Below are positions 25,400 through 29,864 of a stretch of 64,000 bases of DNA, in pieces. Position numbers and translations under genes: made by a program. The notes below the pieces were generated by a model. The model had not been told where the DNA came from. It searched no databases and was given only the letters and a program-made list of their open reading frames with translations. How positions within the stretch are numbered: the stretch's first letter is position 1; each line of letters starts with the position of its first letter. The DNA comes from an uncultured archaeon. GTDB taxonomy: Archaea; Asgardarchaeota; Lokiarchaeia; Sigyniarchaeales; SOKP01. The stretch lies in NCBI GenBank assembly GCA_964486045.1, contig CAZALK010000003.1:160001-224000 (forward strand). Reading direction: 5' to 3'.

Positions 25400-25887
25400 G
25401 TATACTTCCGTTGATTTGTTTATCTTATTTTATTTACTAAATCATAATTTTTAATCTTGATTTAAATTCGAGATTATTAAAAGAAGAGAATCCTCCAATT
25501 CCTACTGAAAAAGATATTTTTAAACCAAAAGTTCTGCTTTTTGAAAGATTATCGTTCCTTTTAAATAATTCTAAATATATTTCTGTAATAAATAATCAGT
25601 TTTCTATTCTTATTAAATTTGTAAAAGAAATTTTAAAACTTGTTGACTTAAAAGAAAAGATGATTTTAGAAAACCTCAGAAAGCATCTTAGAAATGAACT
25701 AAATATTAATTGGAGATCAGATAACATTAAAAAAATTCTAATCGCTTTAAAAGTTTATAAGAAACTAATATTTGAAATTTAATAACAAATTTTGATGTAA
25801 GAAAAAAGTTGTACACACGGTTAATAAAGTTTAATTTAAACTAAAGACATTATTGTACTAAAAGGAAAGATGTATTAATTTTATAAA

Positions 25888-25894
25888 GGAGGTT
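25888..25894 (+). promoter_or_regulatory. Shine-Dalgarno site for the thiolase
   Basis: GGAGGTT, with its GGAGG core 8 nt upstream of ACG at 25901. Confidence 0.65.
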
Positions 25895-25900
25895 GTTAAA

Positions 25901-27106
25901 ACGGTTACTCATGGTATTAAAGATAAAGTTGCAGTAATCGGCTGCGATGCCACTAAATTTGGTGAATTGTGGGATAAAAGCAAAGAAGATTTACTGTTTG
26001 AATCTACTCAAGGCGCTATTAAGGATGCAGGGATTAAAAAAGATGAAATTGATGCTGCATGGCTCGGAGTTTATTATTTTTTCACAGGTGTTTCTGGAAC
26101 CACATTGGAAGATTCATTAAGATTAGGTGGGAAGCCTATAACTAGAGTTGAAAATTATTGCGCAAGCGGAATGGAATCTATAATACTTCGTTATTGATAT
26201 TCAAACGCTTTCCGCAATGCTTGTTTTGGTGTGGCATCGGGAGCTTATGATGTGGCATTAGCTTGTGGTGTTGAAAAGCTAATGGATGAAGGTGGTAGAG
26301 GATTGCCTGGAACAACAGTAATGGGACATCCAGTATTACCACGACCTTCAGCACCAGCTATGTTTTGTTTATTAGCTACTCGTAGTTTTCATGAATTCGG
26401 TTGGAGAAAAGAAGATCTAGCTCGTGTAGCAGTTAAGAATCACGAAAATGGATTTTATCATCCAAAGGCTCATTTCAGAATGAAAATTACATTAGAACAA
26501 GCTATGAATGCCCCAATGATAGCAGATCCACTCGGACGATTTGATTGTTGCGCGATGAGTGATGGTTCTGCTGCATTAATCCTTACTCGACCTGAATTAG
26601 CAGAGTCTTATGCTCATGCTGACGATTATGTTCTTGTTAAATCAAACTCACTTTCAGTTCATTCGGCTTATCCATGGTATGATCCAAAGTTTGATTTTAT
26701 ATGTGCTCCAGCTACGATTGATGCAGCAAAAATGGCATATAAAGAAGCAAACATTACAAACCCAAGAAAAGAAATTGATTTAGCAGAAGTTCACGATTGT
26801 TTTACAATAACTGAGTTATTAAATTGCCAAGATCTACAACTATGTGATAGTGGGAAAGCTGCCGAAGAATTACAAAAAGGTACTTTTAATTGGGATGGTG
26901 AAACTGCGATAAATCCAAGTGGTGGCCTAAAATCTTTCGGGCATCCTATAGGGAGTACTGGTTGTAGGATGGTTCAAGAAGTTACTAAACAACTTCAAGG
27001 AAGAGCTGAGGGAAGACAAGTACCTGATGCAAAAACTGGATTAGCTCACAATCTTGGTGGGGCTTATGCTGTCTGTTCTGTGACTATTTTAGGGCAGAGA
27101 GATTAA
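25901..27106 (+). CDS. acetyl-CoA acetyltransferase (SCP2-type thiolase), join(25901..26174,26205..27106), 391 aa after splicing
   Basis: N-terminus xVTHGIKDKVAVIG; spliced RVENYCASGMDAFRNACFGVASG; EVHDCF, NPSGGLKSFGHPIG and AHNLGG motifs; starts at ACG. Confidence 0.9.
26175..26204 (+). other. 30-nt bulge-helix-bulge intron in the thiolase mRNA
   Basis: exon helix AAGCG/CGCUU, central helix GAAU/AUUC, bulges GGA and AAA, intron helix AUC/GAU + AUAA/UUAU; carries an in-frame TGA. Confidence 0.88.
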
Positions 27107-27294
27107 AGTTTATTAAACATTTTGGAAACCGAAAATAGAGTTTCTTTCTTTCTTTCTTATTTCTTTTTCACAATTTCAGAGGTAGAAAGAAGACAAATAC
27201 AAAGTGATAAAAAAAGAACTATAATTTCAGTTTGTTTAATGTTTTCGAAAATTTATTTAAAAAATTATTTAATGATCTATTAATTTTGATTACC

Positions 27295-28178
27295 ATGAAT
27301 GAATCATTTAATAAATTTCAAGGAGACGTAAAAACCGATAATTTAAAGTATCTTGCAGATCCCCAACTTAGAAATATTGTAAATGTGTCTATTGCTTTAG
27401 AACGTCCCTTACTAGTAAAGGGAGAACCCGGAACCGGAAAAACTATGCTAGCTCACGCAATATCGCAGAGTTTGAGTAAAAAACTACTAATTTGGAATGT
27501 TAAAAGCACTACTGAGGCTATTGACGGGTGCTATATGTATGATACAGTTCAACGTTTAAATGATAGTAGATTTGGTTCAGAAGACCGAGACGTAAACAAA
27601 ATTCACGATTACATTACATTTGGTCCCCTTGGAGAAGCATTTGACGCTAACGAACAAGTTGTTCTCCTTATCGATGAGATCGATAAAGCAGATATAATGT
27701 CTAATAATAATTAGCATTACTGCATATTGAGTTTCCGAACGACTTGCTACAAGAATTAGATGTAATGGAGTTCTATGTAAAAGAGACAAAAGAATTTGTA
27801 AAAACTAAAAAGCGGCCAATAGTGATAATTACTTCGAATAATGAAAAAGAACTTCCAGATGCCTTCTTAAGAAGGTGTGTATTTCACTGGATTGAATTCC
27901 CTTCTAGAGGATTTATGACAGAAATATGTAATCTCCATTACCCAAATCTTAAAACAAATTTATTAGATCAATGTCTTAAACACTTTTATGCATTGCGCGC
28001 GATTACAAAACTTAGAAAATTGCCTTCTACTTCCGAACTCCTAGATTGGATTGGAGTACTTTTAAAAAGTGGGATTAGTATTGACCAATTAAAAAAAGAA
28101 ATTCCTTTCTTAGGTGTTCTCATAAAGAAAGAAAAGGATCTCGAATTTGCATTAGAAAAACTTAAATTTCCTTCATGA
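27295..28178 (+). CDS. MoxR-family AAA+ ATPase, join(27295..27693,27726..28178), 283 aa after splicing
   Basis: Walker A GEPGTGKT; spliced Walker B region LLIDEIDKADIEFPNDLLQELD; ITSNNEKELPDAFLRRC; PSTSELLDW. Confidence 0.9.
27694..27725 (+). other. 32-nt bulge-helix-bulge intron in the MoxR mRNA
   Basis: central helix GCAG/CUGC, bulges AUA and AUA, intron helices UAAUG/CAUUA and CUAAU/AUUAG; causes a TAG and a frameshift if unspliced. Confidence 0.88.
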
Positions 28179-28362
28179 TCAATAAGTAGACTTAAAGAAA
28201 TCCATTTTTTTTTTGATTTTATTATTTTGATATTAATGTTATCTCCAATTTGGACATCCTTTTCCTCTGCGAATATTATCTGGAGTCGCATTCCATATTT
28301 TTCAGCAGTCATGATGATAAACATATGTTAATTCCATTAAATTTATCTAAAGATAATAAGGT

Positions 28363-28424: not shown

Positions 28425-29864
28425 TTAAAACCTCCCCCTAACTGGTCTACATTTCCAATAATAATTTTTAAATTCACCACCTTCATGCAGCCTTCGAAAT
28501 GTTAATTCAACTTCCGTTCCAATACGGACATTTTCTTCAGGGTTTTCGATTTCGGTCATATTTAACATAACTCGACCGCCACCATCCAAATCAATTACGC
28601 ATCTGGGAACTGGAGTATCATTATAAGCACCCCCTACTAAATGATCAAGAGAATATGTATAAATTTTACCTTTTAAAGCTAGTTTAATCAGTTCCAATTG
28701 GTCATCAGCCCTACATACGATACAAGAACGTGCTGTAGTGGGATACTGAATACTTCCACAGTTTTTACATTTAAGGCCATACATTTTATACACAGCAGGT
28801 GTATCTCGCCATAATGTTACAGCAGAACTTTTTCTTACATATCGGTCTTTTTCAAGAAGTTTTTTATTTTCAACGTAAACATTATAGTTTTTAAGAAGTT
28901 TCATTGATTGTTGATGTCCTGATAAGGCCATATGAGCTTGAGAAAGTTCTTTTAGAGCGTTTATATCATGAACGTGCAATAAAATCCCATCAGCACCATC
29001 ACCAAATCCAACTAACAATGCCTTTGCATTTTTTTTGGGATTTTTTAAGGCAGAGATTAATAATATAAAGGACATTGGAGTTCCGAGATCTCCAAATTGA
29101 AAGAAAAGTCCATTTTGAGCTACTCCCTGATTAAATTTCATCGCCTTTGAAACACGTCCATGTGTTCTAGGATTATTATAATAATATGCTGCGATATCAA
29201 TATCCTCAGGACTTAAGTCATTTCTTTCGATAATCTCAGACATTACTTTTGTAACACTTTGGGTATAAAATTGAGTATCCATTTTCGACTCAAAAGTTCT
29301 TATGAAGCTATCCTCCTTTGTTCTTTTCCACGGCCCTGTTACATTAGCCGAAATAGAATAATAGTCATCTATAACAAGTGGTAAATTTTCCCCTTCACTT
29401 AGGAGAAAAGCTGCAGCACCATCACCAAACGTAAATTCCCAAGTAGTAGCTGGCTCTGCTTCTCTCATATCTGAAGCAATAACAAGTATCTTTGAGACAT
29501 CCTTATTTGCTGTAATTGTGTCAACTGCTCTTGCTAACGCGGTTGTTCCTGCTTTTAGTGAGTCAGTGAAGTCTGCTGTTACAATATCTTCCCTTAAATC
29601 TAATACTGTTGCAATAAACGAGGAGGAATCCTTTTCAGTATACACTTGAGTAGTAGAGGCAAAAAATAAACCGTCAATACTTTTTGGATCAATTCCACTA
29701 AGACAATCTATACCAGCTTCAATAGCCATGGTAAGACTATCCTCATCTGCACTTGCAACAGCCTTGTTACCAGGAACAACAGGAAAATCCCAAGCTTTAG
29801 CGATCAACTCGCGAGGCATTACATACTTTGGTAAGTAAACACCATAAGATTTAATTCCAATCAT
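28425..29864 (-). CDS. HMG-CoA synthase-like + DUF35 (Zn ribbon/OB-fold) fusion protein, thiolase-associated
   Basis: MIGIKSYGVYLP...DEDSLTMA...GDGAAAF N-terminal domain; CKNCG...CIVC, GKIYTYS, VELTFRR, YYWK. Confidence 0.85.
   Translation of the reverse strand: MIGIKSYGVYLPKYVMPRELIAKAWDFPVVPGNKAVASADEDSLTMAIEAGIDCLSGIDPKSIDGLFFASTTQVYTEKDSSSFIATVLDLREDIVTADFTDSLKAGTTALARAVDTITANKDVSKILVIASDMREAEPATTWEFTFGDGAAAFLLSEGENLPLVIDDYYSISANVTGPWKRTKEDSFIRTFESKMDTQFYTQSVTKVMSEIIERNDLSPEDIDIAAYYYNNPRTHGRVSKAMKFNQGVAQNGLFFQFGDLGTPMSFILLISALKNPKKNAKALLVGFGDGADGILLHVHDINALKELSQAHMALSGHQQSMKLLKNYNVYVENKKLLEKDRYVRKSSAVTLWRDTPAVYKMYGLKCKNCGSIQYPTTARSCIVCRADDQLELIKLALKGKIYTYSLDHLVGGAYNDTPVPRCVIDLDGGGRVMLNMTEIENPEENVRIGTEVELTFRRLHEGGEFKNYYWKCRPVRGRF

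What the first reader, a model, noticed from the sequence alone, without database searches (positions are those of the whole stretch)
26175..26204. 30-nt intron with a textbook BHB five codons after the thiolase catalytic Cys
Intron AATCTATAATACTTCGTTATTGATATTCAA. Pairings: exon helix AAGCG(26164-68)/CGCTT(26206-10); central helix GAAT(26169-72)/ATTC(26199-202); bulges GGA(26173-75) and AAA(26203-05); intron helix ATC(26176-78)/GAT(26196-98) plus ATAA/TTAT. Splicing joins G26174 to A26205 and gives NYCASGMDAFRNACFG, a normal thiolase active-site helix. The insert is in frame but carries TGA, so the unspliced product stops after about 98 aa.
Basis: partly seen in the sequence, partly recalled or inferred. 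Interest (0 to 1): 0.92.

Follow-up and report, generated by a model that had tools for sequence, protein, structure and literature searches.

The report
tRNA-type mini-intron in Asgard thiolase gene
The mevalonate-pathway thiolase gene of this uncultured Asgard (Loki-type) archaeon is broken by a 30-base insert shaped like the introns normally cut out of tRNAs, so the enzyme can almost certainly be made only after its messenger RNA is cut and re-joined, a process confirmed in archaea for one gene (cbf5) in the papers I could search.

Summary
Observation confirmed and interpretation supported, without RNA evidence.

- **The insert.** Bases 26175-26204 interrupt an acetyl-CoA acetyltransferase gene, in frame and with a TGA stop.
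- **The splice product.** Removing them gives ENYCASGMDAFRNA, the sequence read in all 27 intron-less homologue sequences from related genomes.
- **The fold.** The flanks and insert can form a canonical hBHBh' motif. Cutting after the second base of each bulge lands on one of the only two boundary placements that homology allows.
- **Other carriers.** The same intron sits in at least five other distinct genes from independent assemblies.
- **Selection.** These genes are intact once it is removed and are under strong purifying selection (dN/dS 0.03-0.09). The intron changes far less than synonymous sites.
- **Machinery.** The genome encodes a catalytic and a structural EndA subunit and RtcB.
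- **More cases.** I verified three more such inserts in the same genome: an AAA ATPase 1.5 kb downstream, an AIR-synthase-like gene, and the single-copy RNA polymerase A' gene.

Caveats:
- No RNA data exist for this organism.
- The thermodynamic optimum prefers a shifted register.
- No compensatory base changes were seen.
- The window's copy has ACG where relatives have the ATG start.

Earlier notes of this scan report similar introns in other Asgard genomes. It is a new member of a known kind.

The parts
25901..26174 (+). Thiolase exon 1 (about 91 codons plus the first base of the Asp junction codon). It contains the catalytic Cys codon TGC at 26159-61. Position 25901-03 is ACG where all other intron-bearing loci have ATG.
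   Evidence: NF004810 profile positions 2-92.
26175..26204 (+). 30-nt BHB intron, in frame, with TGA at 26195-97.
   Evidence: Absent from 27 homologue sequences. Identical or nearly identical in G022 and in metagenome loci L045, L049, L051, L053 and L055.
26205..27106 (+). Thiolase exon 2 (last two bases of the Asp codon, then AFRNA... to the stop TAA at 27104-06).
   Evidence: NF004810 profile positions 94-398, 392 bits. Open frame.
26156..26168 (+). 5' strand of the outer exon-exon helix: UAUUGCG, then an unpaired C, then AAGCG.
   Evidence: Pairs with 26206-26219; pair probabilities 0.78-1.0.
26169..26172 (+). Central 4-bp helix, 5' strand (GAAU, exon).
   Evidence: Pairs with AUUC 26199-26202.
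26173..26175 (+). 5' bulge GGA. Predicted cut lies between G26174 and A26175.
   Evidence: Read. The cut-site rule agrees with the homology-defined boundary.
26176..26198 (+). Intron hairpin: AUC/GAU, then AUAAU/GUUAU, with the 5-nt loop ACUUC.
   Evidence: Pair probabilities 0.77-0.98. L051 carries two pair-keeping changes.
26199..26202 (+). Central helix, 3' strand (AUUC, intron).
26203..26205 (+). 3' bulge AAA. Predicted cut lies between A26204 and A26205.
26206..26219 (+). 3' strand of the outer exon-exon helix: CGCUU, then unpaired UC, then CGCAAUG.
27694..27725 (+). Second candidate BHB-type intron, 32 nt and frame-shifting, in the neighbouring AAA+ ATPase gene (exons 27295-27693 and 27726-28178). 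Central helix GCAG/CUGC, bulges AUA and AUA, weak outer helix.
   Evidence: Removal gives DEIDKADIEFPNDLLQE, as read in 28 intron-less homologues. A variant of the same intron is in G020.
28425..29864 (-). Context: HMG-CoA synthase fused to a DUF35/OB-fold domain, the usual partner of this type of archaeal thiolase.
   Evidence: NF003274 HMG-CoA synthase over residues 1-337 and a BbsA-like OB domain over 361-458. PF01796.

Best explanation
Bases 26175-26204 are an archaeal bulge-helix-bulge (hBHBh') intron in the pre-mRNA of the acetyl-CoA acetyltransferase (thiolase) gene. This is the thiolase that lies next to the HMG-CoA synthase/DUF35 gene.

Proposed mechanism:
1. The exon flanks pair with each other over 12 bp.
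2. The last exon-1 bases GAAU pair with intron bases AUUC to form the 4-bp central helix.
3. The heteromeric (alpha-beta) splicing endonuclease EndA cuts after the second base of each 3-nt bulge, that is after G26174 and after A26204.
4. RtcB joins the exons and creates the Asp codon GAC. The full-length enzyme then reads ...ENYCASGMDAFRNA...
5. Unspliced mRNA would give only a 98-residue fragment.

Shown here: the anatomy; the exact fit of the cut sites to the homology-defined boundaries; functional constraint on intron-bearing genes; presence of the enzymes; and three further inserts of the same build in the same genome.

Inferred: that cleavage and ligation actually occur, and which enzymes do them.

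The intron together with about 42 nt of exon flank appears to have moved between two thiolase paralogue lineages as a patch, probably by gene conversion. This step is also inferred.
For: 1. **Splice product.** Removal restores ENYCASGMDAFRNA, present without any insert in 27 homologue sequences from relatives in the same order. NF004810 aligns exon 1 to profile positions 2-92 and exon 2 to 94-398.
2. **Cut sites.** The BHB rule (cut after bulge base 2) predicts 26174|26175 and 26204|26205. This is one of only two placements compatible with homology. Motifs of this quality and length occur at about 1.2e-5 per site in this genome.
3. **Other carriers.** The same intron is in G022 and in metagenome contigs L045, L049, L051, L053 and L055. 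Those whose gene lies whole on the contig give intact ORFs of 399-417 codons after removal; three contigs end before the stop, with the frame open that far.
4. **Selection on the genes.** Pairwise dN/dS is 0.025-0.09 in both exons, with dS 0.36-2.3. The window's own branch has 45 synonymous and 3 non-synonymous codon changes.
5. **Selection on the intron.** It differs at 0-4 of 30 positions while synonymous sites differ by 0.36-0.69 per site. In L053 the in-frame TGA is replaced by TAA, so the stop is not a recoded UGA.
6. **Exon flanks.** They are identical at synonymous sites in the window and G022 (41 of 42 bases against 73% in the rest of the gene). Intron-less homologues vary freely there and mostly cannot form the AAGCG/CGCUU helix.
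7. **Machinery.** EndA alpha has Tyr/His/Lys and a second EndA paralogue lacks the His. RtcB scores 557 bits.
8. **The same rule works three more times in this genome.**
   - AAA ATPase, 27694-27725.
   - AIR-synthase-like gene, C5:195271-195300.
   - The single-copy RNA polymerase A' gene, C13:44101-44130. There the insert carries an in-frame TAA and 24 relatives read C.GHFGHIELARP uninterrupted.
Against: - No RNA evidence. No RNA run holds the stretch, and the one read-laying run gave only DNA contigs.
- The nearest-neighbour energy model prefers a shifted, non-BHB register by 2.9 kcal/mol. It gives the canonical central helix about 1.6% probability.
- No compensatory double changes. The helices are almost invariant, and L053 breaks the C-G pair of the inner 3-bp helix. 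My metagenome pattern also forced 22 flank bases to be identical, so invariance there is partly by construction.
- In the window's own copy the start position reads ACG where every other intron-bearing locus has ATG. This particular allele may therefore be poorly expressed or recently disabled.
- The genome holds about nine other thiolase-superfamily paralogues at 32-42% identity, so this gene is not strictly the only thiolase-like gene.
Confidence: 0.85

Rival explanations
1. The insert is a disabling DNA insertion and the gene is a pseudogene that is never spliced. At least this would hold in the window's genome, where the start codon also reads ACG.
For: In-frame TGA. ACG at the position of the ATG start in the window only. 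Other thiolase-superfamily paralogues exist in the genome. Public gene calls split the gene into 76-aa and 291-aa ORFs.
Against: Five distinct intron-bearing genes remain intact after removal, with dN/dS 0.025-0.09 in both exons. The window's own branch has 45 synonymous and 3 non-synonymous changes. The intron itself is conserved far beyond synonymous sites. An essential single-copy gene (RNA polymerase A') carries an insert of the same build in the same genome.
Confidence: 0.06
2. The 30 nt stay in the mRNA and are skipped or recoded by the ribosome. This could be translational bypassing as in phage T4 gene 60, or stop-codon read-through giving a 10-residue loop.
For: The insert is a multiple of three and forms a hairpin. 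No RNA data exclude it.
Against: No matching take-off and landing codons flank the gap. The neighbouring ATPase insert is 32 nt and shifts the frame. In L053 the stop is TAA instead of TGA, which argues against a specific recoding signal. No homologue has a loop here. The boundaries coincide with BHB cut sites in four of four genes.
Confidence: 0.03
3. The insert is an assembly or binning artefact of this metagenome-assembled genome.
For: The genome is a MAG with 7.8% estimated contamination.
Against: The same insert lies in the same gene context in a second species genome and in contigs from at least five other metagenome projects, with diverged flanking sequence. Contigs of two further runs span it without gaps.
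Confidence: 0.01

Closest known systems
cbf5 pre-mRNA intron of Crenarchaeota (Aeropyrum, Sulfolobus, Desulfurococcales; Watanabe 2002, Yoshinari 2006, Yokobori 2009, PMC2738675)
   Same: - A short BHB-type intron (16-44 bp there, 30 nt here) inside a protein-coding gene.
- It sits next to a catalytic residue.
- It is too short to encode a homing enzyme and is patchily distributed among relatives.
- It is linked to a hetero-oligomeric EndA with broad specificity.
- It causes mis-annotation as split ORFs.
   Different: - A different gene (a metabolic thiolase, not an RNA-modifying enzyme) and a different phylum (Asgard, not Crenarchaeota).
- It is not alone: at least four protein genes of this genome carry such inserts.
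- Splicing of cbf5 was shown experimentally; here it is only inferred.
- Here the intron plus its exon flank is shared between two paralogue lineages.
Non-canonical BHB introns of archaeal pre-tRNAs, dense in some Asgard lineages (PMC11291895; bioRxiv 10.64898/2026.10.13.758758; Marck and Grosjean 2003)
   Same: Same motif geometry (3-nt bulge, 4-bp helix, 3-nt bulge, with half of the motif built from exon), the same predicted cut positions, and the same enzymes (EndA, RtcB).
   Different: The host RNA is an mRNA whose exon halves must also encode conserved amino acids. The outer helix is therefore built from synonymous codon choices, and translation can compete with folding.
HAC1/XBP1 unconventional mRNA splicing in eukaryotes (Ire1 plus tRNA ligase or RtcB)
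   Same: Spliceosome-independent removal of a short mRNA intron at paired stem-loop sites, followed by tRNA-ligase or RtcB ligation that switches the protein product. This comparison rests on my own knowledge.
   Different: The nuclease is Ire1, not EndA. The recognition motif differs. That splicing is a regulated stress response, and no evidence of regulation exists here.

Membership tests
Archaeal BHB (hBHBh') intron / EndA substrate | [quoted passage not shown] | tested here: met
   GGA 26173-75 and AAA 26203-05 flank GAAU/AUUC. This is not the minimum-energy register.
Archaeal BHB (hBHBh') intron / EndA substrate | Flanking outer (exon-exon) and inner (intron-intron) helices | tested here: met
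   Outer 5 + 7 bp and inner 3 + 5 bp, with pair probabilities 0.77-1.0.
Archaeal BHB (hBHBh') intron / EndA substrate | Cutting inside each bulge (after base 2) yields a precise, functional exon junction | tested here: met
   The junction gives GAC (Asp) and ENYCASGMDAFRNA, as in 27 homologue sequences. The profile is contiguous at 92|94.
Archaeal BHB (hBHBh') intron / EndA substrate | Splicing endonuclease and RNA ligase encoded by the organism | tested here: met
   Two PF01974 genes, of which one has Tyr/His/Lys and one lacks the His. RtcB scores 557 bits.
Archaeal BHB (hBHBh') intron / EndA substrate | Intron absent from mature RNA (experimental excision) | not testable with these tools
   No RNA run was listed. 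The single read-laying run returned DNA contigs only.
Archaeal BHB (hBHBh') intron / EndA substrate | Structure maintained by compensatory substitutions among relatives | tested here: inconclusive
   Of 24 pairs, 21 are invariant, 2 show one-sided pair-keeping changes and 1 is broken in L053. There are no double changes. The flank pattern used in the search biases towards invariance.
Thiolase (acetyl-CoA acetyltransferase, NF004810 / PF00108 + PF02803) | Full-length match to the family profile, including the catalytic Cys loop | tested here: met
   Exon 1 scores 105.9 bits and exon 2 scores 392.3 bits. The sum exceeds the 403-bit cut-off only when the exons are joined. The CASG loop is present.
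Group I / group II self-splicing introns, or any Rfam family | Match to a curated RNA family model | tested here: not met
   No Rfam match at gathering score in the window. Nothing relevant at E<=1 in 25800-28300. At 30 nt it is too short for a ribozyme intron.

The most novel reading that the evidence does not exclude
This intron may be one of tens of roughly 30-nt EndA-type introns scattered through protein-coding genes of this Loki-type Asgard genus, including essential single-copy genes such as RNA polymerase A'. Under this reading the introns are young, gained lineage by lineage, and spread between homologous genes as short intron-plus-flank patches. Spliceosome-independent mRNA splicing would then be a routine step of gene expression in close archaeal relatives of eukaryotes, and current annotations of these genomes would systematically break such genes.
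Probability: 0.5. Interest if true: 0.8.

Novelty: new member of a known kind. Interest (0 to 1): 0.62.

Why it matters
- **Rarity in the literature.** In the papers I could search, endonuclease-type splicing of an archaeal protein-coding mRNA is confirmed only for cbf5 of Crenarchaeota. Yokobori 2009 states that no other gene had been confirmed.
- **A second well-supported family, in a new place.** This case is in a central lipid-pathway enzyme and in Asgard archaea. It sits beside three further verified cases in the same genome, one of them in the only RNA polymerase A' gene.
- **Annotation.** Gene callers split or drop such genes. The public record of this contig has 76-aa and 291-aa fragments, so metabolic reconstructions of Asgard MAGs can wrongly score pathways as incomplete.
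- **Translation versus splicing.** It raises the question of how a cell without a nucleus keeps ribosomes off unspliced mRNA.
- **Intron origin.** It gives a concrete system (a 66-nt substrate and two EndA subunits) for testing how tRNA-type introns enter and move between coding genes in the lineage closest to eukaryotes.

Tried and rejected
- **RNA evidence.** No RNA holder was listed for the gene. The single read-laying run put almost nothing from the two best DNA holders on the stretch. From two other metagenomes it showed only contigs that span the intron, plus loose ends of intron-less relatives.
- **Covariation.** There were no double compensatory changes, so this test is uninformative.
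- **Genome-wide census by motif plus ORF fusion.**
  - Relaxed and strict BHB scans gave counts equal to frame-shifted controls.
  - Adding a codon-usage score gave only a weak excess, for example 214 against about 179, or 38 against about 26. I cannot give a reliable count.
  - The scans also miss real cases with a weak outer helix, such as RNA polymerase A'.
- **Paralogue-spanning test of junctions.** It was not discriminating: 9 hits at the true frame against 5-14 in the controls.
- **Copies elsewhere.** The intron core with up to 3 mismatches occurs once in the genome and in 2 of 154 genomes of the order, so it is not a repeated element.
- **L047/L048 as a third host lineage.** Rejected. 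They are identical to the G022 gene from about codon 60 onward and differ only at the 5' end.
- **MaoC-like candidate at C1:565986.** Left unverified.
- **Profilin Pfam search.** Uninformative, because the controls did not ring.

Full report
**What is there**

The window is part of a 5.18-Mb, 32% G+C metagenome-assembled genome from marine sediment.

- The genome encodes full-length actins (441 and 421 bits to Pfam Actin) and archaeal EndA.
- Identical gene variants occur on contigs with the accession prefix LAZR01, which from memory I take to be the Loki's Castle metagenome.
- I therefore treat it as an Asgard archaeon, probably Lokiarchaeia. The exact taxon name was not available to me.

From about 25901 to 27106 on the + strand lies a thiolase gene whose frame is closed by a TGA at 26195-97.

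- The NCBIfam equivalog NF004810 (acetyl-CoA acetyltransferase) aligns the upstream piece to profile positions 2-92 and the downstream piece to 94-398.
- The two pieces are thus adjacent halves of one protein, with only the junction codon missing.
- The divergently placed neighbour at 28425-29864 is an HMG-CoA synthase fused to a DUF35/OB domain. By established knowledge this is the usual partner of this thiolase type in the archaeal mevalonate pathway.

**The observation**

In addition, a 7-bp exon-exon helix (26156-62 with 26213-19) extends the outer stem.

The motif is a canonical hBHBh':
- outer helix of 5 (+7) bp;
- 3' bulge AAA;
- central helix GAAU/AUUC;
- 5' bulge GGA;
- inner helix of 3 (+5) bp.

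The minimum-energy fold chooses a shifted pairing (UGGA/UUCA) that is 2.9 kcal/mol better. The canonical central helix has only about 1.6% probability in the ensemble. So the BHB is a conformation the RNA can adopt, not the one the energy model prefers.

**Comparative test of the splice product**

- I collected 27 intron-less homologue sequences from species of the same order. All read ENYCASGMDAFRNA across the site (one has ENFCASGTDSFRNA), and none has an insert.
- Homology therefore allows only two placements of a 30-nt deletion (26175-26204 or 26176-26205).
- The BHB rule, which cuts after the second base of each bulge, predicts the first of these.
- In a scan of both strands of the genome, motifs of this quality and length occur 122 times, about 1.2e-5 per site. 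The coincidence is unlikely to be chance.

**Is the gene alive?**

The intron core occurs in 2 of 154 genomes of the order: this one and G022. With the flank pattern it also occurs on contigs from several other metagenome projects.

- In every case the frame is open after removal. Those whose gene lies whole on the contig give complete frames of 399-417 codons from stop to stop.
- Among the intron-bearing genes dN/dS is 0.025-0.09, in exon 1 and exon 2 alike, at dS 0.36-0.69 within the main clade.
- On the window's own terminal branch I count 45 synonymous and 3 non-synonymous codon changes.
- Over the same divergence the intron differs at 0-4 of 30 positions, so it is itself constrained.
- L051 changes AUAAU to AUAGC, which keeps both pairs with GUUAU.
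- L053 changes a loop base and breaks one inner pair. That same change turns the in-frame TGA into TAA, which argues against UGA recoding.

A gene kept under this much constraint while carrying a stop-containing insert must have that insert removed or skipped.

**Machinery and precedent within the genome**

The genome has two EndA genes. One has the Tyr/His/Lys catalytic residues and one lacks the histidine, which is the arrangement of the heteromeric alpha-beta enzyme. Published work reports this type for Asgard archaea and links it to relaxed substrates (PMC5829648). The genome also has RtcB.

The same cut rule restores conserved protein sequence in three more genes that I checked myself:
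- **AAA+ ATPase, 1.5 kb downstream.** A 32-nt, frame-shifting insert at 27694-27725. The product DEIDKADIEFPNDLLQE equals 28 homologues, and a variant intron is in G020.
- **AIR-synthase-like gene.** C5:195271-195300. The product GFHVTRAALRD is as in 18 relatives whose matches span the site.
- **RNA polymerase A' gene.** It gives one match in this genome. A 30-nt insert with an in-frame TAA splits C.GHFGH|IELARP, which 24 relatives read uninterrupted.

The last case makes it very hard to avoid the conclusion that this organism removes such inserts from mRNA.

**History**

On a maximum-likelihood tree the intron-bearing genes fall into two places:
- a well-supported clade of four, including the window, whose nearest relatives are intron-less copies in G019, G002 and G004;
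- separately, the G022 gene, which belongs to the other tandem paralogue lineage.

The G022 intron differs from the window's only at its first base. The 14 junction codons are 41 of 42 bases identical, against 73% in the rest of the gene.

Intron-less relatives of both lineages use TCN serine codons where the intron-bearing genes have AGC, which is the codon needed for the AAGCG/CGCUU helix. A switch from TCN to AGC cannot be made by single synonymous steps. I therefore favour transfer of an intron-plus-flank patch by gene conversion or recombination between paralogues, which lie in tandem in G019, G002 and G018. Independent gain with convergent flank adaptation is the alternative. This step is inference.

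**What remains open**

- There is no RNA evidence and no covariation.
- The window's allele reads ACG at the start position where the others have ATG. It may be a weak allele, a recent loss or a consensus error.
- My attempts at a genome-wide census gave only a weak excess over frame-shifted controls and clearly miss relaxed motifs. I cannot say how many such introns exist.
- First-stage notes of this scan list many more candidates in this genome, and follow-up notes report similar introns in other Asgard genomes, two with RNA-derived contigs. I used these only as leads and tested only the cases listed above.

**Comparison with the literature**

The searchable literature documents BHB splicing of a protein-coding mRNA only for cbf5 in Crenarchaeota. 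Those introns are 16-44 bp and sit at the catalytic residue (PMC2738675). It also documents dense tRNA introns in some Asgard lineages (PMC11291895; bioRxiv 10.64898/2026.10.13.758758). I found no report of mRNA BHB introns in Asgard archaea.

**Verdict**

This is a real feature and very probably a spliced tRNA-type intron. It is a new member of a known kind, of clear interest to archaeal RNA biology and to the annotation of Asgard genomes.

Noticed in passing
window 25901-25903: The thiolase start position reads ACG in this genome, while all other intron-bearing loci (L009, L045, L049, L051, L053, L055) have ATG behind the same AAGGAGG ribosome-binding site. This could be a non-canonical start, a recent disabling change or a consensus error.
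   Followed up: partly
window 27694-27725: A 32-nt frame-shifting BHB-like insert sits in the neighbouring AAA+ ATPase gene (central helix GCAG/CUGC, bulges AUA and AUA, weak outer helix). It is absent from 28 homologues. A variant is present in G020 with a G-C to G-U change in the central helix.
   Followed up: yes
G000 C13:44101-44130 (locus L112 1102-1131): The single-copy RNA polymerase A' gene is split between GHFGH and IELARP by a 30-nt insert with an in-frame TAA. It has a 9-bp hairpin flanked by GGAC/GUCU and the bulges AUU and AAA, with a weak outer helix. All 24 relatives checked are uninterrupted.
   Followed up: yes
G000 C5:195271-195300 (locus L090 972-1001): An AIR-synthase-like (ThiL/HypE/SelD-like) gene carries a 30-nt canonical BHB insert between GFHV and TRAALRD. 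It is absent from the 18 relatives whose matches span the site.
   Followed up: yes
window 28425-29864 (- strand): HMG-CoA synthase and the DUF35/OB-fold scaffold protein are fused into one 479-residue protein. In many archaea these are separate proteins that form a complex with the thiolase.
   Followed up: no
loci L004, L005, L007 (G019, G002, G018): Several relatives carry two tandem thiolase paralogues about 300 bp apart, with about 80% amino-acid identity. This genome and G022 each show only one of the two types. The LAZR01 contig L047 is identical to the G022 gene except for its first 40-60 codons, which suggests recombination or chimeric assembly at the 5' end.
   Followed up: partly
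whole genome G000: ARAGORN finds only 31 tRNA genes in a 99%-complete genome and calls introns in 20 of them, many at odd positions. This fits heavily interrupted tRNA genes that standard tools miss.
   Followed up: no
G000 C1:565987-566013 (locus L091): A 27-nt BHB-like insert (outer helix 7 bp, inner 6 bp) lies in a MaoC/hotdog-like ORF. The junction ...GDVNRF|TVYPGD is plausible but was not checked against homologues.
   Followed up: no
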